Positions 12,186 to 58,069 of a stretch of 64,000 nt of DNA are shown here, one piece after another. The stretch is taken from assembly GCA_000002435.2 (NCBI GenBank), contig CM018793.1; one strand, given 5' to 3'. This DNA is from Giardia intestinalis (lineage: Eukaryota). The translations under genes and the position numbers were made by a program. The first letter of the stretch is position 1. Each line of letters starts with the position of its first letter. The notes beneath the pieces are model-generated. The model had not been told where the DNA came from. It saw nothing but the letters and a program-made list of their open reading frames with translations, and searched no databases.

Positions 12186-14084
12186 TTGCTACTTGCTGAA
12201 AATTGCAATAAAATGTTGATGTCTATGTCAGTCGTGCTTCTTCTGGTGCGGTCTTCTACATCTGCCAGTTGTGATGTTGACTACTGCACCGAGTGCGTCC
12301 CAGACTACCCCGATAACTGCATGATATGCCAGGATGACTATAAGCTAGACGTGGAAACGGGCAAGTGCGTTCCATGCCCAAAGGGTACATGGGGTCCCAG
12401 GTGTTCCACACGCAAGTGCTGGCTTACCACACGTGTCAATTGTCTAGAATGTAGTAGCACAGACCGGTGCTGGACTTGTGAAGACGGGTACTATGTGACG
12501 TGGTATGGGGGCTGTGGTGCGTGTGCAGAAGGCACCGGAGGCTATGAGTGTCAGGACCTCATCTGTAATGGGGTTGCACTAACGAATTGTAAGACTTGTG
12601 ATACTGCAACAGAGGGGACCTGTGCAGTTTGCAAGGATTCTTACAAGCTGATTCCAGAGACCAATAAGTGCGAAGCGTGCCCCGATGGCCGAATCGGACC
12701 AGAGTGCATTTCGATGAGGTGTCTGGCCACAACCAGAGACTATTGCCTCGAGTGTCTTTCTGGGACGAATCGTTGCAGCCGGTGTTACGACGACTTTCAT
12801 CCTAATGAGCTTGGAAAGTGTGTTCAATGTCAAGGGAATACCGGTGGCTACAATTGCGAGAAGACTAAATGCAATGGAAAGATATCCGAGAATTGTGCGA
12901 CTTGCTACTCAGCTGAAGATGCAATCTTGGAGCCAGGGGCATGCAAAGTTTGCAAAGATGGGTACTACAAGGAGTCTAGTAACTCCATTACTTGTACACC
13001 GTGTCCAGACAATAGATTGAGTGATGGGATTACATGCAATGCGGTGTTGTGTTCTGGGACCCGCTACGATAACTGCCATACGTGTACAGAAGGCGAACCA
13101 ACGTGCCAGCTCTGCATTGATGGTTATGGTCCCAATGAGACGGGCTCTTGCACGCCGTGCCCTGATGGCAAAGGCGGGCCAAACTGTGTGGGGACAAAGT
13201 GCACAGCTGATCAACTGGCCCTTGTTGACGACTGTAGATTCTGTGGAGATGATGGAGCGTGCGTTCAGTGTGCTGCAGGCTTTATGCTCGATAATAAGGA
13301 GTGCGTTCCTGTCAATGGATGCCAGAGCCCCAACTGCAGAAGCTGCACCGTCACAGAGAGAACAGAGACTTGCAAGCGTTGCCAAAAGGGATATTATGTT
13401 GTTGGGGGCAGGTGTGCACGTTGTGTCGGGAACTGCCTCGACTGTAAGAGCGCAAGCATCTGTGTTGCGTGCGAGGACGGTTATACGTTGACGGTCGACG
13501 TTTGCGTATTGAATTCCCCAGACGTAGACGTGGACTCCTGCAGCATCTCAAACTGCCTGGTGTGCCTGGCCAACAACCGAGACGTTTGTGCCACGTGTTC
13601 TAGCGGCTATCTATGGAATGCAAATGAAAAGGCCTGTGTTGTAGCTTGCCCAGATACTAACTGTATTGATTGCAATCAATCCACTGGTGAGTGCAGCGCC
13701 TGTGGCGTTGGATATGGAATGCAGGGGGCTCTCTGCTATCCTTGTACAATTAGTGATTGCTCTAGTTGCAGCTTTCGCACAGATTCTACATCAGGAGAGA
13801 GCACCGAAGTATGCGTACGGTGCTCTTCTGGAGAACTGACCACTGATGGGCAATGTAAGGAGATTGTGCGAATGAGTAAGAAGACGATTTTCGCTTCATC
13901 CGTTGGGATCGTTGTCCTAGTTCTCCTAGTGTGTATTGGTGTTGGACTCTTCTTCGTTTTTCGACGTAAGCCAGCTCAACAACTCGATGTTACTTCAGAA
14001 ACTCGTCTTATGAACTCTCAGAAAAATATGGAACCGACCTCTGTTGACACCAACCCCGAATGTGTGGAGTATGAAACTGACTAG
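12186..14084 (+). CDS. High-cysteine membrane protein (HCMP, VSP-like CxxC/EGF-like repeats, type I TM)
   Basis: Signal peptide MSMSVVLLLVRSSTSAS; dozens of CxxC motifs; a single C-terminal TM segment (IVVLVLLVCIGVGLFFVF) plus a cytoplasmic tail that does not end in CRGKA; AGTAAAT poly(A) signal about 50 nt 3' of the stop. Confidence 0.85.
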   Translation: MLLAENCNKMLMSMSVVLLLVRSSTSASCDVDYCTECVPDYPDNCMICQDDYKLDVETGKCVPCPKGTWGPRCSTRKCWLTTRVNCLECSSTDRCWTCEDGYYVTWYGGCGACAEGTGGYECQDLICNGVALTNCKTCDTATEGTCAVCKDSYKLIPETNKCEACPDGRIGPECISMRCLATTRDYCLECLSGTNRCSRCYDDFHPNELGKCVQCQGNTGGYNCEKTKCNGKISENCATCYSAEDAILEPGACKVCKDGYYKESSNSITCTPCPDNRLSDGITCNAVLCSGTRYDNCHTCTEGEPTCQLCIDGYGPNETGSCTPCPDGKGGPNCVGTKCTADQLALVDDCRFCGDDGACVQCAAGFMLDNKECVPVNGCQSPNCRSCTVTERTETCKRCQKGYYVVGGRCARCVGNCLDCKSASICVACEDGYTLTVDVCVLNSPDVDVDSCSISNCLVCLANNRDVCATCSSGYLWNANEKACVVACPDTNCIDCNQSTGECSACGVGYGMQGALCYPCTISDCSSCSFRTDSTSGESTEVCVRCSSGELTTDGQCKEIVRMSKKTIFASSVGIVVLVLLVCIGVGLFFVFRRKPAQQLDVTSETRLMNSQKNMEPTSVDTNPECVEYETD

Positions 14085-14278
14085 TTATTTATCATAGCAT
14101 AATCTGCATTGATAATCTCGCAGTATGTGCTAGTAAATGTTTTCTTGAATCAAGAAGATGCAGCGCCATTCTAGGTAGGTGTGTCTCTTGCTCGTTCATC
14201 AACGGGGATCCAAATCTAGAGTCTGAAATTTGAAAATCAGATGTCGTCCACTCCTGGTAGAAGAGCCTTGTGCTTTCT

Positions 14279-14448
14279 CCAAGGCAATAGAGGGCCTGAA
14301 ACTGGTGATGGATGCGCCGATCACTCGCCGCACTAGGCCAACGCTGGCCAGGATCATCGCCCGCTAGTCGAGATGGACCCACACGTGACCTATGTGAATC
14401 CCTCGGCAAGAGATGGGAGCCCTGGAGTGCTTGGCTGACAGAGGCGGA
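14279..14448 (+). repeat. Dispersed repeat, copy 1 (core 31-mer ggacccacacgtgacctatgtgaatccctcg)
   Basis: Aligns with 55155-55291: ccaaggcaa…gtgatgg…atcactcgccg…gaga(t/c)ggacccacacgtgacctatgtgaatccctcg…tgcttggctgacagaggcgga. Copy 1 carries an extra roughly 33-nt insertion. Confidence 0.65.
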
Positions 14449-15120
14449 TTGATCCTGACCGTACCGAAGAGTGGTGGTCTGGGCCACCTGCCTGGGGTCT
14501 GCTGCAGCAGCTGGCAGTGCCTGACACCCTCGAGTAGACGGGCGCCGGTTGTAGAGAGAGACGACCTCGATGAACTGGTCCTGATCGCTTCTGATGCTTC
14601 GGATGACACCCTTCAGAGAGGTGGCCCTGGACCGACGCCTCGACAGACCGAATCATTCCCCCAGGTGTGCTGTGCAGTGCAGATGGACCAGCCCACACGT
14701 CACTGAGCCAAACACGCTGCACAAGGTGAGCGTCGACACGGTCTCGTGCTGGGTGACGGAGCACCTGCAAGAGCGCACCGCAATCCATGAATAGGAGGGC
14801 CATACTTCTCCCCCGACACAACGCATGGGAGCTGTCCACTGGCATCCACGAACGCGTACTATGACTCCAAGATAGAGGTGCATGGGGAGCGCACCCTTGA
14901 TAATGGAACAGATAGTGCCCTCCACGAGGAGACGAAGAGGCACCCCGAGGAACGGGGTGGACACCCGGGGTCGTGGGGCGCGATCTTCGTCACGGAAGAC
15001 CAGAGCCCTGGATTCTGTGGGGGCCAGATCGCAGTGACCGACGCAAGGCCCGAGACAGCAGGTGCCCACTCAAGCGTCAGACAGTAGTTGGCCAAGGGAA
15101 GGGAGGAATCCTCAAAAAGC
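14449..15120. other. GC-rich, T-depleted (plus-strand) non-coding island 3' of HCMP-1
   Basis: No coherent ORF and overlapping short ORFs on both strands. The plus strand is rich in A/C/G and visibly poor in T. Confidence 0.4.
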
Positions 15121-15175
15121 ACCGCGAAGAACAGTAGCAGCTCCCGGAGGGATGAACATAAAGTTCTTCTTTTCT

Positions 15176-17791
15176 TTAGGATTGGATGGCATCCGAATTT
15201 CGGATTTTGGACTTTGCCCAAGAGTAAGTGAGAAGCCCATCTGCCCAGAGCAATGGTGGTTTGCAGGGATATTTACTCAGACAACAACTAGCAAGTTGAC
15301 TTTGGTAAAAAAGAGTATGTCTTCTGTTATTTTCTGCTGCCAACATGAGAGCAGTCTCACCATCATCATTCTTCTTGTCTTTATCAGAAAGGTTCTTCTT
15401 AACTCTTTCAGTATCGCCGGCGAAGGAAGCGCACATGACTGGGGTCTAGGATGAGGCCCCGTGTTTGTGGAGAAGCAGAGCTATGCTTGTGTGCTTGTTC
15501 TTAAGATCATGCATGAACACCGTGTTTCCAGCCTTGTCCTTCATTCCATTATGAGCTGGTATAAGCAGCTCTACTAGCTTTGCGCCCCCCTAATAACAGC
15601 CCGCATAAGTGCTGTCATACCATCATCATCTGTTGGGTCCTCATAAGATATAAGCATCTCAGCAACTTCTAGATGTCCATTTTTAAGAGAATAGTACAGA
15701 GCATTGTGATTTTTCCTATCCTTCAGTTCCTTCTGGCTTGGTATCAGCAGTCTCACAGAGTTTATGTCACCTTTCATAGCCACTTTCATAAGTGAAGTAA
15801 CACCATTGTCATCTAGCATTTTTGTTAGAAAGACCATCTGTATGAAAGGAGCATCAAAATTCTCATTGTTGCAAACTGTGTCCCAAATTTTCCTATAGAA
15901 TTCAGCAGAATCAGCAAGGGTGAGGAACAAGCGTTCACTCGAAGCAAGTTGATTGATGACTTCGGCAACAAGTGTCTGTATGTCTCTGCGGATACCTTCT
16001 ATTTGTTGTTTGTAAAGGTCCGATTCATCCTGGTTACCATTCTTGTCCTCACAGGACGTGTCCCGAATGAACCAGAAGCTGAAGTCGATGTAACGACGGA
16101 AGCTATTACGCAATTTGGAAGGGACTGAGTTCTCATATATTCCTTTGATATCATTGTTAAGTGCTTCCTTCATGTGATCTTCTCCCTTTCCATTACACCG
16201 ATGGATATCGATGAACAGCCTAAGTTTGTGATATATATTTTGACGTCGTTGCGGGGCTGGAAGTAGACTGAGAAGATCGATTTGAGGAGATTGGCGCAGA
16301 ATCCTTCTACACGACTAACATCTGTCTGCAAAATATGAACAATAAGAATGTCGGCAATGGCAGATGCGAAAGCGCCTATACAGCGTTCAATATTCTGATC
16401 ATTTTCTGTGGCACGCTCTTTGCTCTCGGACCCCTTACAATAGAGTAGTAGTATGGTCGGATAGGATCCTGCACCTGGGATGAATCCCGCTGTAAGCCCC
16501 TTGGTCGTCTTTTGTCAGTCGTCATCTTCATCCAACGCCTTGAGGCATGTTCCAAAGAGGTCGTTGAAGAGGGTTGACCTGCTATATGACTGGTCAAGAA
16601 TAACGACACGCGCATAATGAAGGGAGTCAGAGCTGGGATGCTCCGCGCAAGAGCCATATACTTCTTGCTGTATGCGCCCCCGTCTGTAACAAAAGGAGCC
16701 TCTATTCTTCAATGAATAGGGTCGATACCACTGTCTTCCTCAGTAAGGTGTTCTTCAGCAGCTTCAACACTTGTACCACTGAAAGGATATACAAGCGGGG
16801 GCTTAGACATGTTCATGGACGTAGAAGAAGTTAAAGAAACCGTAACATTTGTCGGAGTGGAGCGTTCTGCAAGATGTTCGGATTCCTTATGTTGATCCTC
16901 CGCTTTAATTGCAGGGCTATTGAGTGTTTGGAAAAAGCCAATGATCTTTCTGGTCGTGGGCTGCTCTGCCGGGTCCAGGATAATATCTTCTCGATGACAG
17001 TTCTTACAAATTCATCTGTGATGGCGCCCAAATCAGGCCTCCACTCATTGTCAAAGACTGCTTTCGCATCCTCTGGCTCCCAAAGTGTGAGAAGCTCGGC
17101 AAGCTCATACATGACGACTCCGGAGGCTCAGATATCCGAAGCGGTGCTCGTCTCGTATGAAGGTCTCGGGGGCTATGTATGCCGACGTTCCTGCAAAGGT
17201 GCCTCCACTATGCAGAGAGTCCTTGCAGAGCCCAAAGTCTGCGAGCACGATGCGCTAGCCGTCCCTATTCATCAGAGTTGGCGGGCCCGAGGTCCCCGTA
17301 GACGAGGCTGTAAGATAAGCTCCCGTCTTCGGCCACCTTGCGAGGGTTGTGGAGGTAGGCGAGGGCGTCAGCCATCTGCTCTAGGAGAGGGAACATCAGC
17401 CCCTTGGGACTGGGTTTACGAGCTGCCCTGTAGGCAGTGATAAATTTCTGGAGATCCCCGTGGTGGCGGTCCATGATGACAAAGATGGGTCGTTGCTCCT
17501 GATCACCTGGTGATACTTGATGACGCCGGGCTGGGAGAGTCTCGTAACAGTTTTCAGTTCGCACTCTGTGAGCTTCTTCTCACTACGCTTGATCATCCTC
17601 TCCTTCACAGAAAGGCCTGGACACCCATCGATGGCGCGAACGGCACCGAAGCCCCCTTTACCTAGCAGCTCGCCTTCGCGCTGATACAGCCCTTCGGGAC
17701 TGAACATGGGGATGCTATCGAGGCCACTGCCAGCGCTCTCTGCAGCACGAGTGGGACTTTCACTGACCATGTCATGCGCAATTAGATTCAC
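15176..17791 (-). pseudogene. Decayed NEK-like kinase + coiled-coil + ankyrin-repeat gene, fragmented by multiple frameshifts
   Basis: Collinear minus-strand ORF fragments in different frames: an N-lobe (LGKGGFGAV…VIKYHQVI; 17396-17791), a middle part (VIMDRHHGDLQKFITAYR; 17265-17564), a C-lobe (16831-17112), coiled-coil and ankyrin units (NGVTSLMKVAMKGDINSVRLLIP; 15574-16173) and more ankyrin (DGETALMLAAENN; 15176-15436). The architecture and motifs parallel the 51781-53335 gene. Confidence 0.55.
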
Positions 17792-18489
17792 GCTTTCTAT
17801 TACGCCAAACTAACAATTACTGTACTGGGTCCAATTTTCGCAGAATCTGTGGGTAGATAACAATCATGGATTCGGTGAGCCTCAGCCTTGCTACCTCCTG
17901 GTCGAACGCTTTTCCTCGCGCATCATTACCCAATCCCAATCAGCACAGAAGCCTCTGAAGTCGTGGGATTGCAACCAAAGCGCCCTTAGTGAGACAGATC
18001 TTACGAATTGACCCCTTCTGTCCATCAATCTGAGTGCACGGAGCCATCTTGTGCCAGTGTGAGCTCCTGTGCAGCAAAATAGGTACTGTGCTGCTGGAGC
18101 CTCGCCTCACGCGGTCCAGAAGTCTCACGAGTAAATTCTCGCTCAATTCCTGGCCAATCCGGAGACGAGGGCTGGTTGTAGACAACATACTAGAGGGTCC
18201 CCTCTATTAGTGTATCTAAAACCTGGCACCTTCCCCGGTCGCTCTGTGGGTGTGTGCTCAGACTATGTGTGGGCGTCGCTCAGCCTTGGATTCAGCTTAC
18301 TCACCAGCACATGTAGTCTATGAGTAGTGCCTCGCTTCATGGTCTTTCTTCATGGTGGATGATAGATATGGGTTGCTACTATCTTTTTAACAATGCTTTC
18401 ACTTGTCTCGACGACAGCAGCTATTAGGTCTCTGGCTCGCTATAAGGGGCATCGTTATTTGTTCTCGGTCGCTGCTTCCCCTGTGAGTA

Positions 18490-18700
18490 AGCAGATCTTC
18501 TCTCGCCACCTCTCCAGCTCCACTGGCTGGGCCCCTCGATGTCCGTCTGGCTGTGGTTCTGGGTCAGCGCTCTACAGTCGCGGTCACCTGGATCTCATGG
18601 CGGGCCGGCTGGTGGGTGAGGCAGGGTTGGTGGGGCGGTGAGGCCGGAGGGGCTCCTGGTGGGGACCGGGTGGGGCGGTGTTCGTATGTGCCCTGGATCC
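18490..18700 (+). repeat. Left arm of an imperfect inverted repeat of about 210 bp
   Basis: Nts 18490-18700 align to the reverse complement of 20281-20500 at about 85-90% identity. One example is a 52/53 match in gggccggctggtgggtgaggc(a/g)gggttggtggggcggtgaggccggagggg; another is cactggctgggcccctcg(a/g)tgtccgtc(t/c)ggctgtg. Left has a 12-nt insertion. Confidence 0.7.
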
Positions 18701-20280
18701 GGTGGACTGGGGTGATCATAGCTGTGGTGACTGGGGGCTATCCATCTGTGACTCACCCCTCTGTGGGCTCGTGGTCTGTGAGTGCCTCCACCCAGACAAC
18801 GCCTCAGGAGCCGTGCACACCGGGACAGAGAGGATGACCAAGGGAGTCAGGCAGCCCTACCATGAGGGTGCACAGCAGCCAGCCTGAGCTGTAGGGTCTG
18901 CTCGAGCGATGTAGTGGCAGACGACTCCCTCTGACAGCAGCCCTGGTGACTGCACTGGTCTGCTCTCGAGACTGAGTGACAGTGCACACAGATGGACCTG
19001 AGTGCAGGAGGACCATCCACACACGGACAGACTGTGTGGACCCAGAGAGGACTGGAGTCTGCTCGGGACACGCTGACTGTGCCCCGTACGAGAGCCCCAG
19101 GCAACCACCCGAGCACCCGAGAGGCAGTGACAGACACGGGCACCAGAGATCCCCGGCCAGACACATTACTGTGCTCATCCACAGGGGCATCAGAGGGCCA
19201 GGTGAAGTCACCCTCACAACCAAGGGCCTGATAGGAAGCCAGAGGACTCAAACACTACAGCACAGCAGGCCCAAGGGAGGCACACTCCAGGCAGGTGAGC
19301 AGTGGCAGAGCCCTGACAGCTGCCAGCCCCCCATGACACCCAGGCAGGCACGACTCGCCGAAGACTCCGCTGGCCTCCATCGATGACCCAGGGGGCAGCA
19401 GCCAGAGGAGTGAGGAGGCCTTCGGATGACACAAGAGGCCCGGCTGTCCAGCAGGCGATGGAGCACAGGTGGTCTCTGAGTACCACCCAGGCACAGGACT
19501 GACCATCAGAGTGATGCCCGATCACAGAGACGACCACGAGCACCCTCCACTGCACTCTGAGGGGCTGTCAATCATCCCACTGCCTCTCATAGCAGACCTC
19601 CTTGGGGGCAGTGCAGTGGGTGACCCGGCTCGTGCAGGAGGGTGCACACCCCTCAGTATAGGGTGCCCCGGCTCTCCCCGAGGGGCCATCAGAGCCACGA
19701 GGATGGGTCAAGGTCCTGATAGATCACATCGGGAGCTCCCGAGGGCACAGCAGGTGATGTTGGGTGACCCTCAGCGTACTCCTCTCTGATGGTAGAGCAT
19801 CCTGAGACCAAGGAGGACTCACCCCTGCCTATGAACAACACACAGCGCTCCACAACAAGGATCTACCAGGAGCAGCACAGCTGGCCACGGGGACAGTGCA
19901 GCCACCAGTGCCCCACCGTGCCAGTCTTCTGGGCCATCACACTAGAGGCATGACAGAACCCCATCCCATCCACAGGGTTGTCCATACCCCTGCTGGCCCG
20001 AGGTGAACTACCGTCGAGGCACTGGACAGGGCATGCCAGGAGGCTCAGCAGACCCGCACAGAGCATCAAGATGGGCTGCGATGGTCTGCCTCACCCCTCA
20101 CGCACCAGCCAGACAGAGCAGCAGTACTACTTGAGACATGCAGGGGCCAAGGGAGGCACTCAGTCAAGGGACACGACACGATCGTCGGTGCCTCTGTCTC
20201 GGGAGTGCAACGAAGGCTGGAGATCAGACACAACCACCTTGGCAAACAGAGTGGGGATCACCCACCACCTCAATGGTCCA

Positions 20281-20500
20281 CCGGACCCAGGGGCACATAG
20301 AGACACCGCCCCCGGTCCCCTCCGGCCTCACCGCCCCACCAACCCCGCCTCACCCACCAGCCGGCCCACTGTGAGACCTAGGTGACTGGACTGTGGGAGC
20401 GTTGCCCGGGACACAGCCGGACGGACACCGAGGGGCCCAGCCAGTGAGAGAGCCTGGTGGCAGCCCCCGACAGACGGGGCATCTAAAAAAGACAGCGACC
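20281..20500 (-). repeat. Right arm of the inverted repeat (reverse complement of 18490-18700)
   Basis: Same alignment as the left arm. The peptide TGWAPRCPSGC is encoded on opposite strands at both arms (ORFs 18393-18641 + and 20350-20592 -), confirming the inverted symmetry. Confidence 0.7.
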
Positions 20501-20798
20501 CGAGCTTCACCCACCAGGACGGCAGACCAAGGAGAGGCGCCACGGGTAGAGCAGAGAGTCTGCGAAAAGGCCAGGGCCCTGGACGCGCACACTCAAATCG
20601 AGTACATGCCCGCGAAGTGGCAGAGGGGCGCACCAAGCTCTGGATGCGCTAATAGAGAGGAATCCCTAGCATGTTATCCACAACCAGCCCTCGTCTCCAG
20701 ACGGCCAGGACATGGGTGAGGCTTACCCGTGGGACGTCTGGACGCACCAGCAGCCGGGGCCTAGTAGCATAATCTACATAATCCATATACAGCAACGC

Positions 20799-20817: not shown

Positions 20818-22728
20818 CTACGCCTTGCCCCTGCAGATGAACCACCAGCAGAGGAAGCCGACGAGGCCGCCGACAACAACGATGACAGCGACGGAGATCC
20901 CCGCTATGGCGCCTGTGCTAAGGCCGCTCTTGTTCGTGTTCCCGCCGTTGTTATCGTTACCACCATCGTTAGTGACATCTGTCTTGACGTAGCAGGTGAC
21001 AGGACCGCCATTGCCACCAGTTGGAGGGGCACAGCTTACGCAATTTGGGACACCAACAATATGGCTACCATCATTGGGATCATTGGTGTCGCACTTCACA
21101 CATTTTGCTCCGGCAAGATAGTATCCCGGAAGGCACGTTTTGCATGCCTCCTTGTTTGCTACCTCACATGTTTTACAACCAGATGCACATGCTGGACAAG
21201 ATCCAGTGCTAGCTTCTGGTTGTTGTCCATTAGCACAATTCGTACATTTTCCATTCTGAGCATTGCTACATAGGTTGCTGCCTGGGTATGCAGCCGACTG
21301 ATAGCATCCGCCAGATTGCAAGAAGTATGTGGTTGTACACGCTTTGCATGTTCCATCATTGTTATCATTTGGCATGCATCCAGTTACTGCCCTTGTCGTT
21401 GTCGACACACAGACGCCGTCCACCGGGGCGAACCCTGCCTTGCACCTGCTGCAGTACTTCGAGCCCCCAACGACGGCCGTGCACTGGCCAGCCTCGCAGT
21501 TCTCTGCGTACCTTCCCGTGCACTCTGGGATGCATGTGCCGGTGGCTCCAGTATTGCTTTTGCTCAATACAAGCCCAGGATAACAAGCTGTACAGGAGGC
21601 TTCACTATCACCATCACATTCTGCACAAGAATTATGGCAATTAGTACATATCCCGCTGACATCACGAGTTCCTGCAGGACAGCCCTCCATACACATGTTC
21701 TTTAAGGGGCTTAGGCTTTTACCTCCAGTACACTCTTCACACATATTCTCTTCATTACACTTTATACAATCCTGTATATCACATAGTACACACTTCGTTC
21801 CGTCGGCGTTGGGTTGATTAGTACCTGCTATACAAGCAGAGCACGTGATGAGAATTGTACCTTCAGGATTATCCTTCAAAGCACACGTTTTGCAGTCTGC
21901 TATCCCTTCTGAGCATTTCTTACACATTTTTCCATTAGTAGGATCGTCAGCATCATCAGTGAAGTGGGAGTTATCATTACATCCACTTTTATCAACACAT
22001 GTATTAGAGTCCTCGGTTTCGCCCTTTTTTAGATATGGCTTGTTAGCGGTTGCCTTGCACTTCGTGCATTTTCCTGCTCCTGCATCGCATTTAGCACAGT
22101 TATTGTCCTGGCATGCTGTGCATGCTGCCCCATTGCTGTCAACAAAGAACCCCTCAAGACATGACTCACATACGGCAACCTTGTCTTGGCGAGCAGCACC
22201 AGCACTGGCTGGCGGCTGACACGTAGCACAGTTCAGAATTCCTTTATACGTATTTCCACCATCCACAACTCCAGTTGCATCATTGCATGCAATACAAGAG
22301 TCCTTATTGTTAGCTGCACTTGGGTTTTTAAAATAGCCAACTACGCAACCCTCACAAACGCCAGGAGTTTTTGATGACACACGACCAGCAGCTGCGGCAT
22401 CGGCGCAAATAAGGCGTCCAACGTCCCCGCCAATTGCATAGCATCCGTTCTTATGGAGGAAGTAAGCCCCGTCGCATTGCCCACATGTCTTTTCTGTTGT
22501 TATTTCAGCTCCAGCATCAGTCTTACATCCAGCAGTTGTGACAGTAGCATCCCCCTTTGGTGTGCATACTCCGTTGATAGGAACGTCTCCTTCAGCTTTG
22601 CATTCTGTACAGATCTCAGTATCACTTGTACTTATTTTTACACACTGCGTACATTTAGCAATTTGGGCATCCGATTGACAAGCTGCCGTAAGAGCGCTCA
22701 GCACGAAGTAGAAAGCTACCAATAACAT
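20818..22728 (-). CDS. Variant-specific surface protein (VSP), 636 aa
   Basis: Signal peptide MLLVAFYFVLSALTAAC, many CxxC motifs, and the invariant C-terminus …GLVGFLCWWFICRGKA*, which is the VSP TM segment plus CRGKA tail. Confidence 0.9.
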   Translation of the reverse strand: MLLVAFYFVLSALTAACQSDAQIAKCTQCVKISTSDTEICTECKAEGDVPINGVCTPKGDATVTTAGCKTDAGAEITTEKTCGQCDGAYFLHKNGCYAIGGDVGRLICADAAAAGRVSSKTPGVCEGCVVGYFKNPSAANNKDSCIACNDATGVVDGGNTYKGILNCATCQPPASAGAARQDKVAVCESCLEGFFVDSNGAACTACQDNNCAKCDAGAGKCTKCKATANKPYLKKGETEDSNTCVDKSGCNDNSHFTDDADDPTNGKMCKKCSEGIADCKTCALKDNPEGTILITCSACIAGTNQPNADGTKCVLCDIQDCIKCNEENMCEECTGGKSLSPLKNMCMEGCPAGTRDVSGICTNCHNSCAECDGDSEASCTACYPGLVLSKSNTGATGTCIPECTGRYAENCEAGQCTAVVGGSKYCSRCKAGFAPVDGVCVSTTTRAVTGCMPNDNNDGTCKACTTTYFLQSGGCYQSAAYPGSNLCSNAQNGKCTNCANGQQPEASTGSCPACASGCKTCEVANKEACKTCLPGYYLAGAKCVKCDTNDPNDGSHIVGVPNCVSCAPPTGGNGGPVTCYVKTDVTNDGGNDNNGGNTNKSGLSTGAIAGISVAVIVVVGGLVGFLCWWFICRGKA

Positions 22729-51194: not shown

Positions 51195-51982
51195 TAGCCG
51201 GAGTTCATGTGCCACTGCTCTTCTGTCAGGCTGATGTGTTGCCGCGAGCAGTGAGAGACAGCCGCTCTTACTCTCTTGATCAGTTGGACTGGAGAAAGAC
51301 GAGATAGGAGCATGCCCACCGGAGGCCAGTTGATAGCACGGTTCCCCCTGACTTCGATAGGAACAGGATGAGTGAGGGCCAGACTCAGATCGCACCTCTC
51401 TTGTGGAGTGATTGATTGGGGTGCACTCCTGTACATTGCTGTCGCTGTATCACTGGGCCCACCTGCAGGTGCGCTCAGAGATCCCACGGGTAAGCCGCGC
51501 CCACTTCCTGGTCGTCCGAAGACTATGGCTGGTTGTGGATAACATACTAAGAGCTCCTCTCCATCGATGCATCCAGAGCCCTGTGTGGTCCCAGTCGGCG
51601 TGCTCTGTCTGGGGCGCTCCGTGTCGGCCTCCAGGATCTGGCCTGCTCAGGGCCATACGAGCCGCTAGTATGCCCTCCTTGGCCTGCCATCGACAGCTCG
51701 CACTAGGCGCCTTGCTCGGGCAGTAACCAAGGTCACACCAAAGGGTGGCTCCGGATTGCAGTTAAAATCAGCGGCGGCTGTTGACTCCACTCCTTGTCCC
51801 AGCCACCGCAGAGGGTGCCCTGGGAGATGCTAGTAACAGTGCAGTTAGCAGCTTTGCAGGGCCGATGGGCGCTGGTGGCGTTCCCGTGTTCAGCCCCAAA
51901 AAGTTGCATAGACGCCTAGGTAACATGCTCAGCAGGCACCCTCAGTGTTATCTACTCTCTCAGGGGATGCCCCTACCTTGCT

Positions 51983-53335
51983 GTGGAGGAGATTCAGCTC
52001 GATGGTTTGGATCAGCACGGTGTGGATGCTATTAAGCGTAGGCTGACCGCTCTTCTAGGCACCCTTCACCCAGACGTTCTCAAATACCACCAGGTGCTTA
52101 CAGACGGCAACGCGATCCTTGTTGTCACAGACCGCTGCTGTGGAGACCTCCGGCAGTTCATCACCGACTACAGGGACATTCACGAACCTATTCTCAGCAA
52201 GCTGGTCCTCTCCCTTCTGGGGCAGCTGGCTGGCGCCCTTGCCCACCTCCACGGGCTCAGCAGAGGTGCCCACAGCGGCTTGCCCTCTAGCGTTGTCCTC
52301 GAGCCCGACAACATCATGTTCGCTGGGGACAGGCGACGTGTCGTCCTTGGAGACTTCGGGTTCTGCAAGGGCATATTGAGTGGAGCTGCGAAGGCCGGCG
52401 ACCCCGCGTACATGGCCCCCGAGACACTCCTCTGCGGTGACATGACCCAAGCATCCGACGTCTGGAGCCTCGGGGCCATCGCATACGAGCTCGCCACCCT
52501 GAGGAAGCCGGACTTCCTAGAAGGTAAAGACCCAAAAGACGTCTTCGTTGACGGATGGAGGCCAGACCTGAGCGGTGTCGCAGACGACCTCGCAAGGAGC
52601 GTCCTTGAAGGAATGCTCGTCCTCGATCCTGCCGAGAGGCCGACAGCCAGAAGGCTTGTCCGTCTACTTCTGAGGCTTGACATCTCTGCTGATGAACAGG
52701 AGGCCCAAGACACAAGGCTAAAGGAGGCGCGCGCAGCCTTTGCAGACGCCTTGAATAGAGCCAACAACGAAACAGTAGCTCTTAGGAAGGACCCTCCTGA
52801 TCGAGCTACAAGAATGGACATCATCAGGGAGCAGTGTGCTATTGCCGCCAAGCTATTCAGGGAAATACAGGAGATTAAGGCAGAGATGGGCGAAACAGAC
52901 GAGCCAGACGAAAGGGAGGATTCAGAAGAGCCAGAGAAGAAGCACCTAATAGAGGAGGACGACTCCACCGACCTCATGAGGGCAGTCGATAGAAACGACG
53001 TGGAGGCCGTGAAGGCCCTCATACCACTCCAGGGGGGCACGAAGATGAAGGGATGCGCACTTGTAGGTGACTGGAAAATATACGAGGGAACTGCCCTGAT
53101 GAGAGCGGCGGTATATGGATACACAGAGATCGTGGGGCTGCTCGTGGAGAAAGAGAAGGGACTGAAAGATAGCAACGGATGGACGGCCCTCATGTGGGCT
53201 GTGAAGAACGATCACACAGATTGTGTCAGGCTCCTCATGAGAGAGAAGGACTTGAAGGGTTATAATGGAGGGACTGCCCTTGAAATGGCTAAGTTATGGA
53301 GAAACCATGAGATAGTCGCCCTCCTCTCAGAGTAA
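51983..53335 (+). CDS. NEK-like pseudokinase (lacks Gly-loop and HRD) + coiled coil + C-terminal ankyrin repeats
   Basis: Kinase C-lobe motifs are degenerate (LEPDNIMF instead of HRDLKPxN; DFGF; PAYMAPE), followed by ankyrin units (GTALMRAAVYGYTEIVGLL; NGWTALMWAVKNDHTDCVRLL). The beginning of the N-lobe (VFSPKKLHRRLGN…) is encoded in another frame at 51781-51982, so the N-lobe is frameshifted. Confidence 0.7.
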   Translation: MEEIQLDGLDQHGVDAIKRRLTALLGTLHPDVLKYHQVLTDGNAILVVTDRCCGDLRQFITDYRDIHEPILSKLVLSLLGQLAGALAHLHGLSRGAHSGLPSSVVLEPDNIMFAGDRRRVVLGDFGFCKGILSGAAKAGDPAYMAPETLLCGDMTQASDVWSLGAIAYELATLRKPDFLEGKDPKDVFVDGWRPDLSGVADDLARSVLEGMLVLDPAERPTARRLVRLLLRLDISADEQEAQDTRLKEARAAFADALNRANNETVALRKDPPDRATRMDIIREQCAIAAKLFREIQEIKAEMGETDEPDEREDSEEPEKKHLIEEDDSTDLMRAVDRNDVEAVKALIPLQGGTKMKGCALVGDWKIYEGTALMRAAVYGYTEIVGLLVEKEKGLKDSNGWTALMWAVKNDHTDCVRLLMREKDLKGYNGGTALEMAKLWRNHEIVALLSE

Positions 53336-53586
53336 ACGCCTTAAAGCCAATGGATTGAAGCGCCAGTGCCACATTTTACTGACCACCGAGAGACGGAAAA
53401 GTGCCGCCGCTCCCCTATAAAGCAGTCTAAGTAGCGCACCACAAGAACTAACCATATAGAGCGAACGTATCTCCACGGCTTGCCTGCTTCTGAGGACGCT
53501 TGGTGGCTCGTGGGAGCTGCTCAGACAACCTTATTTTTGCTTTGATGCATTGAGCAAGATGAGGGTGTAATAGTAGTTGACAACAA

Positions 53587-55154
53587 ATGAAGGCAGGTCT
53601 CTCGTTCGTTCACCGCCCGGCATCTGAGACAAGAACTCGAGCTCGGGGGTCGCCCACCTCTAGAGAAGAACCTTGTGCTTCCTCCCTAGGGGGCCGTTGT
53701 TGCCCTGGGGTGCGTTCCTCTGGCCAACCTGGGCCAGCTGCTCCCCCGTATCCGATGGGCACCCGCTACCCCAGGGCCACGCAGCTCACCTTCCGCCTCA
53801 TCGAAGCTGGTCTGCCACCTGCCGGCCGAGCAATTCGTACCCCGTACAAGTCCTCCCCGCGGCAAGTGGACCCCGCCCGTTCGCCGCCCCAAGCCCAGAG
53901 TCCGGTATTCGGGTCAGAACGTCGGCCGAGTCCGGGGGAGAAGAGCCAGGCCGTGCACGCCAGCTCCGGCATCAACCGGAACGCCCTCCAGACCAGCCGA
54001 GGAACTAAGGCGCAATCTCTGCCGCCCAGTAGCACGACCGAGGCCGCGGTGTTGGGCGGACGACAGCACCAGAGCGCCCAGCTCGTCCAGGGCACTGCGA
54101 AGCGCCGCCCCTCGCAGGGGACACGCTCCGACGCCAGGAGAACGAGGGCCGCGGGCACTCATGAGCGCGCTTCCGGTGCTCCAGGTCCGGCCCGGGCCTC
54201 AGGAGCCCACTGAGACGGGGCGGTGGCACCGGGTGAACGTTGAACTAGTAGGAGCGGAAGAGCACGTGCCCGTCCTGCAGGAAAACCCTCCGCGATGAGG
54301 CCGTCCAGACGTATGCAGCACAGACACCGGATGTAGGGCGCTGCTGAGTGGAGTAATAGGAATAGAGAAGGACACCCCCCTCAGCACCCGTCGTGCGAAC
54401 GTGCTCAGGGGAGGGTACCTAACACCCCGCAGAGCCCCAGGTGAGAGCCGAGGAGACGTGCCTCGCTCACACAGCGGGGAAGCGGAGGAGCGGCATTCAC
54501 CACCCCACTGCCCGGCCTGCAGCCTCTGCCTCGCCTCGAGGGGGAGCTGCACCCTGACAGCGCCACCGACGACCAGCACCTTGCTATCCAGAGGGCCGGA
54601 TCAGGACGGCCTGGCCCCTGAGAGACAAGAGCCCCCTCAGCCATCGGAGAGCACGGACGGCCAGTCCACGGGGCTCGAAGTCTCCGGGCCTGCGCTGGCG
54701 AGTCCATCCGGGTGCAGGCCTTCAACGAGATCCTCGGCGCGATCCATAGGATGGGATGCGTGCTCTGTACGGTTCCGCCTGGCCCTTCCCCAAGAATGGG
54801 ACAGGACAAGCACGATCAACGGACGATCATGATTCGCTCCACAACACAGTTCCAAGGAGCTGCGTCGAGGCCTTCCTCCGGCTGCGACACGCTGCACTCC
54901 TGGACTCGGTCCCTCGGGGCCCTGCGCATGCCCCCATACTGCGTGGTACAGAACCTGCTCACCAGGAACTGAGGAGATACCTCGCTCACTGCCTTGCCGA
55001 CGACACATCCATCTTCCATAGTAGCAACAGTGATGCGACGGGGATAGCCACAGAGGCGACAGGCCTAGGAAATGCTATGGCTCGACGATCAGCACTGGGT
55101 GTAGGAGTACGGAGGGACAGGAGGCCTCTCTCCTGGCCGGGCTCGAAGGAGCCC
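53587..55154. other. GC-rich, T-depleted (plus-strand) non-coding island 3' of HCMP-2
   Basis: 1.5 kb with overlapping ORFs of 60-210 aa in all six frames and no coherent coding frame. The plus strand is strongly depleted in T. Confidence 0.4.
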
Positions 55155-55291
55155 CCAAGGCAACGGAGAGCCAAAGCTAGTGATGGCACTAATCACTCGC
55201 CGTGCTGGTTGAGACGGACCCACACGTGACCTATGTGAATCCCTCGACGAGCAAGTTGGGGCCCCTGGGGTGCTTGGCTGACAGAGGCGGA
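55155..55291 (+). repeat. Dispersed repeat, copy 2 (same family as 14279-14448)
   Basis: Shares the exact 31-mer ggacccacacgtgacctatgtgaatccctcg and the flanking blocks ccaaggcaa…atcactcgccg… and …tgcttggctgacagaggcgga with copy 1. Confidence 0.65.
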
Positions 55292-55594
55292 CGAGTCCTG
55301 GCTGCCCACAACCAGCCGGCGGAAGGGGAGGTCCTAGAAGGCCCTGCGAGAAGCACAGCAGCTCCCAAGAGGATAGGGCAAACCTTCTTCTTCTCCCACG
55401 GGGATCTAGGACATCCGGCTCTCGGGTCTCGGACGGTGAGCGGGAGGTCCACTCAGAGCGATGGCTCGCATGGAGAGATTTACTTAGATAGCAGCCTTAG
55501 TGATACTCAGTTAGCCATTTAAAATATCAAACAAAATACCACATGGTGAAAGCTAATAAAGGACACAGCTGTAGTTTCTAGCGCAGTTACTATT

Positions 55595-58069
55595 TTAATG
55601 GGTGCTTGCAACGATAGACTGCTTGTAGAGCAGTGGAACTCCGGCCTTCTTTCGGAAAACGAAAAACCAAACCAGCACAGCCGCCACACCGCCGACGACG
55701 AGGACCACGCCGATGGCGATGCCAGAGATAGCACTAGACGAGAGGGCGGACTTTTTAGAGGTGTTATCGTACTCCAGACATATGGGCTTGACTGCGCCCT
55801 CTGGAACCACGCAGAGGCTGCACTTGGAGATCGCCTTGTGACACGCCTTGCACGTGCTCTCGGAGAAGTAGTACCCGGCCAGGCAGTCGAAGCATGCCTC
55901 CCCATGAGGACAGGTGGCGCAGCCCTTGGAGCACGCCTTGCACGCCCCCTTCTCCAGGTAGAACCCGCTGTTGCAGGCGCTACAGGCTCCACCGCTACAC
56001 ATTGCACAGTTCGTCGGGCATGTAAGGAGCGTTCCGTTGTACGTTATCCCGTACCCGGCCACGGTGCTGTCACACCAGCCGTCGCTCGCCTTCGTGCAGA
56101 CAGTCTTCCCGGGGAGGAGCGTGGAGGTGTAGCACCCCCCGTTGAGCCTGAAGGAGTTCGAGCTGCAAACAACACACCTACCGGCGGCGACATTCGCGCA
56201 CGCGATGCCAGCCGCCCGCGAGCTGGAGGAGGTGCACGCCCCGTTGTTGGGGTACTCCGTGCTCTTGACGCAGCGCGAGCAGTAGCTGGTCCCGCCCACC
56301 GTGAGCCCGCACTCTGCACAGCTGCTGTCCTGCACGCACTGCGGGACGCACGATCCCTTGGCACCGTCGCTGTACTGCAGCCGCCTCTTGGCAGGGCAGG
56401 AGGTGCAGTCGCCGGATGCCGGTCCGCTGCACGTGGCGCACTCAGAGCTGCACGGCTTGCATCCTCCCGAGCCCTCGACGTAGAGCCCGTCCCTGCATGC
56501 CTTGCACTTGGATTCCGACTCGCAGACTGCGCAGTTGCCGAGCGTGCACGCCACGCACCTCGAGACGCCGCCCACGGTGGCCTTGTAGTACCCGGCGGAG
56601 CCCAGGCAGTCCTTCACGCACAGACCGTGGGGGTCGAGGCTGTTGCCATCGGTACACTTTGTGCACACGTCTCTGTCCTCGCACGTGTCGCAGTTGGGGT
56701 CCTTGCACTTGGTCGCCACGCACTGACTATCGGAGAGTGTGTAGCCATACTTGCACTTCTTACAGCTCGATTCATCACACTCAGCGCAGTTCTCCACCGC
56801 GCACCCGACACACTTCCCGTCCTTCAGATAGGACTCGTCATCGCATGCGCAGCTGTGGACCGAGGATGAGGACTCCTGCACGCCCTTCTGCCCCTTGGGA
56901 CAGCTGGCCAGGCAGCTCCTCTTATCCAGGCTCAGGTAGAGGTCGCGGCACTCCAGACACTGAAGACTACTGTCCTTCATCTCACACCTTTGACATCCCT
57001 CTATTCCCCCGTTGGCTGAGTCCCCGCAGCGCCAGCATCCGTTGTTCTTGGTGAACACCTCTTTGGTTGAGCTGTTACATGCGGTACAAACGTTTTCTTT
57101 CACTGCTTGACAAATCTGAGATTCTATTTGATCCGAAACATCTTTAAATAAGTAGCATCCACCATAAAACAAGAAATATTGCCTGTTGCCCTCATTCTTA
57201 CAAGATGTACACCTTCCCGATTCAGGATCCTTTACGCAAATGTCTTCAAACCCAGTTATTGATAGACAGAGGCCATTCAGAGGAATCTCTGATGGGTTGG
57301 TGCAGCGAGAGCATAGGGATTGCCCAGACATCTCCATGATATTCTCCGGTAGACAGATGCTGTTGCTTATTGGAGTATCTCTGGCATAACAAGCATAAAA
57401 GCTCCAAATGTGTGTTTCGGGACAGTATCCACAAAGACCATTGCTTGCACCTTCAGTGATGTGCTTACATCGATAATCATACGAGCATGTATTTTTGTGG
57501 TCTGAACATTGGTAGCAATTTGGGACCACTTCTTGCTTTATCCTTGAAGAGTTACAAACTAGACACCCATATATCCCACTATATCCACCAAAGCCCACAG
57601 TGTCTCCGCATGAGATGCATCGCTCGGGAGTGCTAGTGCTGGGATTGGTGAAGGCTACAGATGGCTGCGTTTCGTTTGTTTTTGCACATTCTACACAGAT
57701 CCCCTTTTCTGCTCGTTCACAAATGAACTTTGTCCAGTCTTGAGATAAATTATAGCACCCACCATAAAAAACAAAGTGGTCATCGCCGCACTTAGTGCAC
57801 CATCCGCCTGTTTGAGATTTAGCACAGCCAGACCGAGTAGCCTTGGAATCTCCAGCCAGAACACACTTGCCATCAATCGGTACGTATCCAGACTCGCATT
57901 CTGTACAAAGAAATCGCGAGGTTACACCCAATATGCAACTATTTGGAAGGCAATTTGGTATTTTACCTTCGCAGAAGTATCCAAACCCATTGCGATATAT
58001 AGGTGCCTCCTCAGAGAAGAACTCTGCCAGAAGACAAACCAATAGCAGAACTGATAAAGATCGTGACAT
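55595..58069 (-). CDS. High-cysteine membrane protein (HCMP), 824 aa
   Basis: Signal peptide MSRSLSVLLLVCLLAEF, more than 90 Cys in CxxC/CxC arrays, one C-terminal TM (IGVVLVVGGVAAVLVWFFVF) and a short tail without CRGKA. The GC-rich coding strand produces long spurious antisense ORFs. Confidence 0.85.
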   Translation of the reverse strand: MSRSLSVLLLVCLLAEFFSEEAPIYRNGFGYFCEGKIPNCLPNSCILGVTSRFLCTECESGYVPIDGKCVLAGDSKATRSGCAKSQTGGWCTKCGDDHFVFYGGCYNLSQDWTKFICERAEKGICVECAKTNETQPSVAFTNPSTSTPERCISCGDTVGFGGYSGIYGCLVCNSSRIKQEVVPNCYQCSDHKNTCSYDYRCKHITEGASNGLCGYCPETHIWSFYACYARDTPISNSICLPENIMEMSGQSLCSRCTNPSEIPLNGLCLSITGFEDICVKDPESGRCTSCKNEGNRQYFLFYGGCYLFKDVSDQIESQICQAVKENVCTACNSSTKEVFTKNNGCWRCGDSANGGIEGCQRCEMKDSSLQCLECRDLYLSLDKRSCLASCPKGQKGVQESSSSVHSCACDDESYLKDGKCVGCAVENCAECDESSCKKCKYGYTLSDSQCVATKCKDPNCDTCEDRDVCTKCTDGNSLDPHGLCVKDCLGSAGYYKATVGGVSRCVACTLGNCAVCESESKCKACRDGLYVEGSGGCKPCSSECATCSGPASGDCTSCPAKRRLQYSDGAKGSCVPQCVQDSSCAECGLTVGGTSYCSRCVKSTEYPNNGACTSSSSRAAGIACANVAAGRCVVCSSNSFRLNGGCYTSTLLPGKTVCTKASDGWCDSTVAGYGITYNGTLLTCPTNCAMCSGGACSACNSGFYLEKGACKACSKGCATCPHGEACFDCLAGYYFSESTCKACHKAISKCSLCVVPEGAVKPICLEYDNTSKKSALSSSAISGIAIGVVLVVGGVAAVLVWFFVFRKKAGVPLLYKQSIVASTH

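What the first reader, a model, noticed from the sequence alone, without database searches (positions are those of the whole stretch)
53587..55154. Three GC-rich, strand-asymmetric (T-depleted) non-coding islands, each immediately 3' of a cysteine-rich surface-protein gene
Island A (14449-15120) follows HCMP-1. Island B (18490-20500, the IR element) follows the VSP. Island C (53587-55154) follows HCMP-2. All three are GC-rich with the plus strand conspicuously poor in T, and all have 60-200-aa ORFs in every frame but no coherent protein. Their shared composition and consistent position next to VSP/HCMP genes suggest one sequence family. Possibilities include a decayed retroelement (Giardia has a known dead non-LTR family), or regions involved in the antisense or small-RNA-based silencing reported for VSP genes. 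The strand skew is consistent with transcription-coupled or RNA-derived origin.
Basis: partly seen in the sequence, partly recalled or inferred. Interest (0 to 1): 0.7.

Follow-up and report, generated by a model that had tools for sequence, protein, structure and literature searches.

The report
Dead retrotransposon relics beside Giardia VSP genes
The three GC-rich, T-poor "islands" are decayed copies of a dead Giardia non-LTR retrotransposon (GilD type), a family already reported to lie in gene-poor regions next to variant surface protein genes, so the finding is real but ordinary.

Summary
In this Giardia intestinalis (assemblage-A-like) window, the only stretches with T below 14.5% lie in islands B and C. 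All three islands are 59-69% GC, have no intact gene, and sit next to a VSP or HCMP gene.

They are not VSP debris, rRNA or any Rfam RNA. Less decayed copies from assemblage E (P15) and A2 (DH) contigs bridge them to a non-LTR retrotransposon with C2H2 zinc fingers and a reverse transcriptase (Pfam RVT_1, E=2.6e-18).

- **Island C** (about 54060-55500, + strand) is an internally deleted copy holding zinc-finger and RT remnants split over three frames.
- **Island A** (14266-15329, + strand) is a 5'-truncated copy of the C-terminal part. It ends at the same 3' terminus as C.
- **Island B** core (about 19064-20002) is homologous at DNA level only to a second, related RT-bearing element in DH. It lies between inverted arms.

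The T-poor strand is the element's sense strand. Its composition (A .22, C .32, G .30, T .15) matches the better-preserved copies, so the skew is inherited.

This fits published descriptions of GilD: dead, riddled with deletions, and next to VSP genes. High-GC islands around VSP genes are also published. Novelty is low. A role in silencing was not tested.

The parts
14266..15329 (+). Island A: a 5'-truncated relic of the GilD-type element. It covers the C-terminal ORF part, with a CCHC-like and a PD...DSK endonuclease-like remnant, plus the 3' terminus.
   Evidence: tblastn with P0030 aa 162-464 hits 14272-15003 at E=9e-16. HMM hits at 14266-14358, 14729-14779 and 14827-14961 fall in frames 0/1/0. 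nhmmer aligns 14280-15319 to P15 L013 10126-11424 at E=9e-86. The 3' terminus alignment is.
14353..14457 (+). The ~105-nt segment shared with island C (55192-55300). It is the only part of the element present in both copies.
   Evidence: 84-90% identity. The 31-mer GGACCCACACGTGACCTATGTGAATCCCTCG occurs twice, against 0 expected.
18088..18707 (.). Island B, left inverted-repeat arm (A-poor polarity). It lies next to a decayed NEK kinase pseudogene (16910-17985, -).
   Evidence: The inverted repeat pairs 18114-18707 with 20276-20743 at 66-91%. It is homologous to DH L014 8751-9367 and 11964-12292.
18708..20275 (+). Island B core: a heavily decayed relic of a second, related RT-bearing element.
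   Evidence: nhmmer aligns 19064-20002 to DH L014 9501-10833, which includes the 5' half of the RT ORF P0056. Scores are 49-66 at E of 1e-15 to 1e-20. The best of 100 dinucleotide shuffles scored -5.2, and other GC-rich islands scored at most 5.2. Protein-level signal is not significant. Composition is A .24, C .315, G .30, T .145.
20276..20770 (.). Island B, right inverted-repeat arm. It ends ~50 nt from the VSP stop codon.
   Evidence: It is also similar to 51455-51691, upstream of the NEK kinase.
53336..53600 (+). 3' flank of the NEK kinase. It is conserved with P15 and forms the left boundary of island C.
   Evidence: nhmmer aligns 53356-53761 to P15 L013 15813-15379 at E=1.8e-45. blastn gives 71% identity.
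53600..53780 (-). Antisense fragment of the 3' part of an older element copy. The same junction with the kinase flank exists in P15.
   Evidence: One search aligns 53356-53761 to L013 15813-15379, running into P15 copy 3, and 53619-53784 to L011 1088-1280. AT skew here is about 0 or negative.
53780..53913 (-). Inverted copy of the element's 3'-terminal ~130 nt, lying 5' of the main body. The same arrangement is seen 5' of two P15 copies.
   Evidence: The matching P15 segments are L011 5217-5350, L013 7072-7196 and L013 11292-11425.
54060..55500 (+). Island C main body: a sense-oriented, internally deleted element. Zinc-finger region at 54258-54597; RT core at 54852-55073, with the YADD box decayed to LADD; 3' terminus at ~55500.
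   Evidence: tblastn hits with P0031, P0033, P0030, P0032 and P0035. HMM hits reach E of 4e-11 and 4e-13 and fall in three frames. nhmmer blocks against L013 8205-11451 imply deletions of ~105, 340, 213 and 790 nt. The 3' end alignment is.
12186..14084 (+). HCMP-1, the flanking cysteine-rich membrane protein gene (context).
   Evidence: Weak Pfam VSP hit and tblastn.
20818..22728 (-). VSP gene ending in CRGKA (context).
   Evidence: Pfam VSP E=1.5e-79. Translation.
51983..53335 (+). NEK kinase with ankyrin repeats (context). The N-terminus is interrupted by an in-frame stop.
   Evidence: Pfam Pkinase and Ank hits. 64-71% aa identity to the DH and P15 kinases. Stop codon seen.
55595..58069 (-). 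HCMP-2, a VSP-like high-cysteine membrane protein (context).
   Evidence: Pfam VSP E=4.5e-73. 94% aa identity to WB XP_001704991.1.

Best explanation
The islands are inert relics of non-LTR (LINE-like) retrotransposons of the dead Giardia family known as GilD, or close relatives of it.

The parent element encodes one long ORF: N-terminal C2H2 zinc fingers, a reverse transcriptase, and a C-terminal CCHC plus restriction-like endonuclease region. It presumably inserted by target-primed reverse transcription. That step is inferred from the class.

The anatomy is shown directly:
- Copy A is 5'-truncated.
- Copy C runs to the same 3' terminus but has lost about 1.4 kb in four internal deletions.
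- Copy B belongs to a second lineage and is decayed beyond protein recognition.
- All three carry many frameshifts and stop codons.

Their GC-rich, T-poor + strand is simply the sense-strand composition of the element, retained after death. The copies persist in the gene-poor VSP/HCMP/NEK clusters, where insertions and rearrangements are tolerated. They account for the high-GC islands seen around VSP genes. The sequence indicates no present function.
For: 1. The P15 copy L011 1-5730 (-) hits Pfam RVT_1 at E=2.6e-18 (66.9 bits against a cutoff of 29.6) and zf-C2H2_16 at E=7.9e-07, 29.4 bits against a cutoff of 27.
2. L011 and L013 align in one collinear block with island C and then island A.
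3. tblastn and HMM hits place ORF positions 470-959 on 54258-55073 and positions 995-1283 on 14266-14961. All are on the + strand and switch frames.
4. A and C share the same 3' terminus with the P15 copies.
5. Sense-strand composition of the P15 and DH copies is A .22-.23, C .32-.335, G .30-.31, T .145-.154. Islands B and C show A .22-.24, C .31, G .30-.31, T .145-.156.
6. The B core against the DH element L014 scores 49-66 in nhmmer. The maximum of 100 dinucleotide shuffles was -5.2.
7. The family is 69-92% identical to P15 "Reverse transcriptase" proteins, but only 28-30% identical to the ~1100-aa "Reverse transcriptase/endonuclease" group. I take that group to be GilM/GilT.
8. [quoted passage not shown] VSP regions are high-GC islands (PMC2723961). 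VSP flanks are long, gene-poor and hold non-LTR relics (bioRxiv 10.1101/2022.03.07.483299).
Against: - No GilD reference sequence was available, so the name rests on elimination and on matching published properties.
- Six-frame translations of islands B and C themselves give no Pfam hit. RT homology of C appears only with family-specific queries.
- For B there is no significant protein-level signal. Its assignment rests on one long, weak DNA alignment with high compositional bias.
- About 150 nt of C (53913-54060) and the arms of B match no RT-coding part.
- The inverted terminal pieces are not typical of non-LTR elements.
Confidence: 0.9

Rival explanations
1. The islands are decayed VSP/HCMP (or NEK/ankyrin) coding sequence, that is, plain pseudogene debris of the neighbouring gene families.
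For: The clusters do contain such debris nearby. There are VSP C-terminal fragments at 50769-51197 and 59300-59383. There is a NEK pseudogene at 16910-17985 and ankyrin remnants at 10538-11763.
Against: tblastx of the islands against the window and tblastn of the three Cys-rich proteins give no hit inside A, B or C. No Pfam VSP hit was found in any frame. Positive RT and zinc-finger homology was found instead. VSP coding strands are not T-poor relative to A.
Confidence: 0.02
2. The relics have been co-opted as regulatory loci. Their sense strands in B and C converge on the VSP and HCMP-2 genes. They could yield antisense transcripts or small RNAs that feed VSP silencing, or nucleate repressive chromatin.
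For: - The sense strands of B and C point toward the 3' ends of the VSP and HCMP-2 (parts list).
- Abundant antisense VSP transcripts are reported.
- Small RNAs from Giardia retrotransposons are reported (PMC10999387).
- An authors' suggestion that high-GC islands may matter for VSP regulation appears in PMC2723961.
Against: - Orientation is not consistent: A is in tandem with HCMP-1, and the P15 copies are head-to-head with HCMPs.
- Sequence conservation is no better than the flanking genes. Islands show 60-76% identity with many indels not divisible by three, against 70-80% for the HCMP and kinase genes.
- There is no Rfam match.
- No expression data were available here.
Confidence: 0.07
3. 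The islands are compositional features produced in place. GC-biased gene conversion or recombination in VSP clusters, or transcription-coupled mutation, would create the GC richness and skew, without any mobile-element origin.
For: VSP regions as a whole are GC-richer than the genome. The 53913-54060 piece and the B arms have no RT homology.
Against: Homology to RT-bearing copies covers most of A and C and the core of B. Near-intact P15 copies already have the same composition. Polarity flips exactly where pieces are inverted, as inheritance predicts and a local mutational process does not.
Confidence: 0.02

Closest known systems
GilD, the dead non-LTR retrotransposon family of Giardia lamblia (Arkhipova and Morrison 2001, as described in PMC2861651)
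   Same: It is a non-LTR RT element in Giardia. All copies here are dead, with frameshifts, stop codons and large internal deletions. It sits in gene-poor regions next to VSP genes. It is distinct from the two telomeric families.
   Different: Identity with the deposited GilD sequences could not be checked. Island B belongs to a second lineage: P0056 is 48% aa identical to P0030 in the RT core, and 33-35% to P0031 and P0032. Assemblage E copies still hold ORFs of 494-720 aa.
GilM and GilT, the telomeric non-LTR retrotransposons of Giardia
   Same: Same host and the same general ORF layout (RT plus endonuclease). The sense strand is also A>T: an unassigned RT ORF in P15, L013 3154-4422, has A .28 and T .19.
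   Different: Only 28-30% aa identity to the island family. They are intact ~1100-aa ORFs in head-to-tail subtelomeric arrays. The islands are chromosome-internal, solitary and dead.
Restriction-like-endonuclease non-LTR clades (CRE / R2 / NeSL)
   Same: N-terminal C2H2 zinc fingers, a central RT, and a C-terminal CCHC-like motif followed by a PD...D-x-K-like stretch, read in the P15 conceptual ORF and in island A. GilM and GilT were placed in the CRE clade (PMC10088271).
   Different: The endonuclease domain was not confirmed by any profile. No target-site specificity or target-site duplications were established. An inverted copy of the 3' terminus at the 5' side is not a feature of these clades.
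RUF6 GC-rich non-coding elements among Plasmodium falciparum var genes
   Same: They are GC-rich non-coding islands interspersed with a variant surface antigen gene family (PMC8957917).
   Different: RUF6 is a conserved, transcribed ncRNA family with shown effects on var expression. The Giardia islands are decaying retrotransposon copies with no sign of constraint and no expression evidence here.

Membership tests
Non-LTR (LINE-like) retrotransposon | Reverse transcriptase domain of the non-LTR type | tested here: met
   The P15 copy that aligns collinearly with islands C and A hits Pfam RVT_1 at E=2.6e-18. The island C RT core at 54852-55073 hits the family HMM at E=3.6e-13 and gives tblastn hits with P0030, P0032 and P0035. 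The nearest annotated relatives are Giardia RT/endonuclease proteins, and distant hits are insect LINE RTs.
Non-LTR (LINE-like) retrotransposon | Copies share a common 3' end and are variably 5'-truncated | tested here: met
   A starts at element position ~10126 of L013. A, C and the P15 L011 and L013 (copies 2 and 4) copies end at the same ...CCTYGGTG terminus, followed by a short A-rich stretch.
Non-LTR (LINE-like) retrotransposon | No long terminal repeats; target-site duplications or a poly(A) tail | tested here: inconclusive
   No direct LTRs were found. Only short A-rich runs follow the 3' end. Target-site duplications were not identifiable in such old copies. Inverted terminal pieces are present (130 nt for the A/C lineage, 350-600 nt for B), which is atypical.
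GilD (dead Giardia family) | All copies dead: frameshifts, substitutions, multiple internal deletions | tested here: met
   There are 8-19 stops per sense frame, and HMM hits switch frames. C has internal deletions of ~105, 340, 213 and 790 nt relative to the P15 copy.
GilD (dead Giardia family) | Located in gene-poor regions next to VSP genes, not at telomeres | tested here: met
   A, B and C abut HCMP-1, a VSP and HCMP-2 inside a 64-kb chromosome-internal window. The property is stated in PMC2861651.
GilD (dead Giardia family) | Sequence identity to the deposited GilD reference or consensus | not testable with these tools
   No Giardia nucleotide collection or Repbase is searchable here, and the original paper (PMC64710) is not held.
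GilD (dead Giardia family) | Distinct from GilM and GilT | tested here: met
   28-30% aa identity to the ~1100-aa Giardia "Reverse transcriptase/endonuclease" group, against 69-92% to its own family. Equating that group with GilM/GilT is my inference. One member lies on a 4.0-Mb WB contig, and GilM is reported on WB chromosome 5.
VSP/HCMP pseudogene | Detectable similarity to Cys-rich CXXC proteins in some frame | tested here: not met
   There are no tblastx, tblastn or Pfam VSP hits inside the islands.
Known structured RNA (rRNA fragment, snoRNA, etc.) | Match to an Rfam covariance model | tested here: not met
   No match at gathering thresholds or at E<=1 over the whole window.

The most novel reading that the evidence does not exclude
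GilD-type elements may be more than passive debris. Three independent copies (window C and two in P15) carry an inverted ~130-nt copy of their own 3' terminus at the 5' side. The B-type element sits between 350-600-nt inverted arms in both this window and isolate DH.

This could reflect an unusual integration or hairpin-forming structure. Convergent read-through from such copies could supply the antisense RNA reported for VSP and HCMP genes. Separately, the much better preserved ORFs in assemblage E might mean the "dead" family was active there recently.
Probability: 0.1. Interest if true: 0.5.

Novelty: already known. Interest (0 to 1): 0.15.

Why it matters
It gives a concrete explanation for a published but loosely described feature, the high-GC, gene-poor islands around Giardia VSP genes. 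At least here they are the carcasses of GC-rich, strand-biased retrotransposons.

This matters mainly for annotation. The many ORFs in these regions should not be called as genes. It also matters for studies of how VSP/HCMP/NEK clusters rearrange, because dispersed homologous relics are obvious substrates for ectopic recombination.

It opens no new question by itself. Only a demonstrated role in antisense or small-RNA control of VSP expression would raise its importance.

Tried and rejected
- **Rfam over the whole window**, at gathering thresholds and at E<=1, found nothing. I was testing a suspected rDNA-fragment origin, because Giardia rDNA is very GC-rich (my own recollection).
- **Pfam on all six frames** of islands C and B found nothing.
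- **Direct comparison among the islands** (blastn, relaxed blastn, tblastx) showed only the 105-nt A/C overlap and B's inverted repeat. On its own this would have wrongly suggested unrelated islands.
- **tblastn of the VSP and HCMPs** gave no hits in the islands.
- **Protein database search with the nine longest island C ORFs** gave no hit.
- **Exact-sequence look-ups** failed for HCMP-2, the 208-aa island ORF, P0001 and P0002, which are not on record.
- **Logan short-read contigs** carrying the neighbouring 746-aa gene all stop at about window position 50790 and never reach island C.
- **A metagenome scan** for the shared 31-mer found nothing.
- **HMMs run on whole-frame translations** with X for stops gave meaningless scores. 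I redid this on stop-to-stop segments.
- **Protein-level tests of island B** against P0056 were no better than a reversed-sequence control. B therefore rests on DNA homology only.
- **The original GilD paper** (PMC64710) is not held.

Full report
**Context.** The window is from Giardia intestinalis. Pfam finds VSP domains in 20818-22728 (-) and 55595-58069 (-), and a weaker one in 12186-14084 (+). The 824-aa HCMP is 94% identical to a WB (assemblage A) "High cysteine membrane protein VSP-like". Two housekeeping proteins of the window occur with identical sequence in more than 130 blocks of public sequencing-run (Logan) assemblies.

The genes next to the islands are:
- HCMP-1, 12186-14084 (+).
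- A VSP ending in CRGKA, 20818-22728 (-).
- A NEK kinase with ankyrin repeats, 51983-53335 (+).
- HCMP-2, 55595-58069 (-).

**The observation.** It is real. Against a window average of about 25% for each base, the three islands have GC of .61.63 and .655 and T of .161.148 and .145. Every 600-nt window with T below 14.5% lies in 18801-20900 or 53601-54900 (finer profiles). No intact gene is present. Each sense frame has 8-19 stops. The nine longest ORFs of island C have no relative among 5.8 billion proteins. No Pfam family hits any frame of B or C. ORFs of 60-200 aa in all frames are what ~65% GC produces on its own.

Two refinements apply. The skew is reversed in the left part of B (18450-18850: A .13, T .23) and is near zero in the first ~300 nt of C. 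Island C lies between two convergent genes, so it is as much 3' of the NEK kinase as of HCMP-2.

**What the islands are not.**
- Rfam gives no hit at gathering score or at E<=1, so they are not rRNA fragments or a described ncRNA.
- tblastx against the whole window and tblastn with the three Cys-rich proteins find VSP fragments elsewhere (50769-51197, 59300-59383) but nothing inside the islands.
- Direct comparison of the islands shows only a ~105-nt segment shared by A (14353-14457) and C (55192-55300) at 84-90% identity, plus an imperfect inverted repeat inside B (18114-18707 against 20276-20743).

**The bridge from other Giardia genomes.** I fetched contigs around HCMP paralogues. In the assemblage E isolate P15, two paralogues are preceded by gene-free, GC-rich blocks with the mirror-image skew (L002 1-2700; L011 1-5730).

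L011 aligns in one collinear block first with island C and then with island A. The blocks are:
- Window 54166-54614.
- Window 54715-54850.
- Window 54855-55201.
- Window 55204-55330.
- Window 14281-15208 (island A).

The shared 105-nt segment is the overlap between the C and A portions. A second P15 contig (L013) carries four copies. One is a continuous sense copy, 8409-11259, which aligns with C and then A.

Translating the L011 block shows clear RT motifs. Pfam confirms RVT_1 at E=2.6e-18 (66.9 bits against a cutoff of 29.6) and zf-C2H2_16 at E=7.9e-07, 29.4 bits against a cutoff of 27.

A database search with the conceptual P15 ORF finds three groups:
- A close family, 69-92% identical, including "Reverse transcriptase [Giardia lamblia P15]".
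- A large group of ~1100-aa Giardia "Reverse transcriptase/endonuclease" proteins at only 28-30% identity.
- Distant LINE RTs of insects.

**Mapping back to the window.**
- *Protein level, island C.* tblastn with the family places P0031 and P0033 (zinc-finger region) on 54215-54705. It places P0030, P0032 and P0035 (RT core) on 54834-55115.
- *Protein level, island A.* P0030 aa 162-464 falls on 14272-15003 at E=9e-16. All hits are on the + strand.
- *Family HMM.* It gives ordered hits at profile positions 470-959 in C and 995-1283 in A, switching frames.
- *DNA level, island C.* nhmmer against the P15 sense copy shows C as blocks 54075-54168, 54167-54614, 54653-54852, 54853-55311 and 55321-55535. 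These blocks imply internal deletions of about 105, 340, 213 and 790 nt.
- *DNA level, island A.* A is a single block, 14280-15319, that starts in mid-element. It is therefore a 5'-truncated copy.
- *3' end.* Aligning the 3' ends of seven copies shows that A, C and three of the P15 copies share one terminus (...CCTYGGTG, then a short A-rich run). It lies at ~15329 in A and ~55500 in C.

The RT box reads "LADD" in island C where the P15 copy has "YADD". Island A retains a "PD...DSK" stretch where restriction-like endonucleases have their catalytic motif. Both are read directly from the translations and were not tested with a profile.

**The left end of island C is composite**.
- 53356-53761 is collinear with the P15 kinase's 3' flank and runs into an antisense, truncated older copy. 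The same junction exists in P15, so it predates the split between assemblages A and E.
- 53780-53913 is an inverted copy of the element's last ~130 nt. The same inverted piece lies just 5' of two P15 copies (L011 5217-5350, L013 7072-7196).

This explains why the T depletion starts only near 53900.

**Island B.** Neither RT profile hits it. A targeted protein comparison is no better than a reversed control. A contig of the assemblage A2 isolate DH (L014) nevertheless has the same architecture: NEK kinase (-), arm, core, inverted arm. There the core is an RT ORF (P0056, Pfam RVT_1), which is 48% identical to P0030 in the RT region.

nhmmer aligns L014 9501-10833, which includes the 5' half of that ORF, with window 19064-20002 on the + strand. 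Scores are 49-66. The best of 100 dinucleotide shuffles of the B core scored -5.2, and the other GC-rich islands scored at most 5.2. The three best weak protein matches are collinear with this alignment.

I therefore read B as a more deeply decayed relic of a second, related lineage, with lower confidence (about 0.75) than for A and C (about 0.97). The arms also resemble the sequence upstream of the NEK kinase at 51455-51691. Whether they belong to the element or to a duplicated kinase flank is unresolved.

**Why the strand is T-poor.** The sense strands of the better-preserved P15 and DH copies have A .22-.23, C .32-.335, G .30-.31, T .145-.154. Island C has A .22, C .31, G .31, T .156, and the B core has A .24, C .315, G .30, T .145. 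Polarity flips exactly where a piece is inverted. The skew is therefore inherited from the element, not created by transcription or mutation at these loci.

**Comparison with what is known.** Three published points line up with these results.
- Gladyshev and Arkhipova (PMC2861651) summarise the original description. [quoted passage not shown]
- Franzen et al. (PMC2723961) reported that VSP regions are high-GC islands.
- A 2022 preprint (10.1101/2022.03.07.483299) reports long, gene-poor VSP intergenic regions containing non-LTR relics.

The islands match GilD in every property I could test: a non-LTR RT, dead, internally deleted, next to VSP/HCMP genes, and distinct from the intact telomeric families. 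The one defining test I could not run is direct comparison with the deposited GilD sequence.

**Mechanism.**
- *Shown.* The ORF homology, its order and strand, the truncation, the deletions, the shared 3' end and the shared composition.
- *Inferred from the class.* Insertion by target-primed reverse transcription, followed by neutral decay in a region tolerant of insertions.
- *Not supported by anything in the sequence.* A present function. Orientation relative to the neighbouring Cys-rich gene is inconsistent: convergent for B and C, tandem for A, head-to-head in P15. Identity between assemblages is 60-76% with many indels not divisible by three, which is no higher than the flanking genes at 70-80%.

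**Verdict.** The phenomenon is already in the literature, so interest is low. The only loose ends are the inverted terminal pieces and the much better preservation of the family in assemblage E.

Noticed in passing
window 53780-53913; L011 5217-5350; L013 7072-7196: An inverted copy of the element's 3'-terminal ~130 nt lies just 5' of three separate copies, one in this window and two in P15. Terminal inverted pieces are not expected for non-LTR elements. Whether they belong to the element or to a duplicated ancestral locus is open.
   Followed up: partly
window 18088-18707 and 20276-20770; 51455-51691; L014 8751-9367 and 11962-12292: The arms of island B recur upstream of NEK kinase genes in this window and in isolate DH. 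They flank an RT ORF in DH in the same arm-core-inverted-arm layout. Their nature (element termini or kinase 5' flank) is unexplained.
   Followed up: partly
window 16910-17985 (-): A decayed NEK kinase pseudogene lies immediately left of island B. It shows 27-44% aa identity to the P15 and DH kinases in several frames.
   Followed up: partly
window 51740-52060 (+): The NEK kinase next to island C has an in-frame TAG at ~51917, upstream of the ORF start at 51983. Homology to the DH kinase runs from 51779. The gene is N-terminally truncated or a pseudogene.
   Followed up: partly
window 50769-51197 (-) and 59300-59383 (-): These are VSP C-terminal fragments (transmembrane region and CRGKA tail). 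All public short-read contigs that carry the neighbouring 746-aa gene end at about window position 50790, at or near the first fragment.
   Followed up: partly
window 10538-11763 (+) and 15320-15849 (-): Ankyrin-repeat remnants (28-47% aa identity to the repeat part of the P15 and DH NEK kinases) lie in the GC-rich stretch upstream of HCMP-1 and just after island A.
   Followed up: no
L002 21-2158; L013 7883-9856; proteins P0030-P0033: Assemblage E (P15) copies of the same family keep ORFs of 494-720 aa, and one 525-aa uninterrupted stretch. They are far less decayed than the assemblage-A-like copies in the window, so the family may have died later, or not completely, in assemblage E.
   Followed up: no
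L011 9000-11100: A second GC-rich (0.58-0.68), T-poor, gene-free island lies downstream of the P15 HCMP paralogue. It matches neither RT profile nor anything in the window, so not every such island is yet explained.
   Followed up: no
window 29761-32175 (-): An 804-aa ORF combines a papain-family cysteine protease domain with a Kre9/KNH-like domain. It lies in another GC-rich stretch (about 0.60) that is genuinely coding.
   Followed up: no
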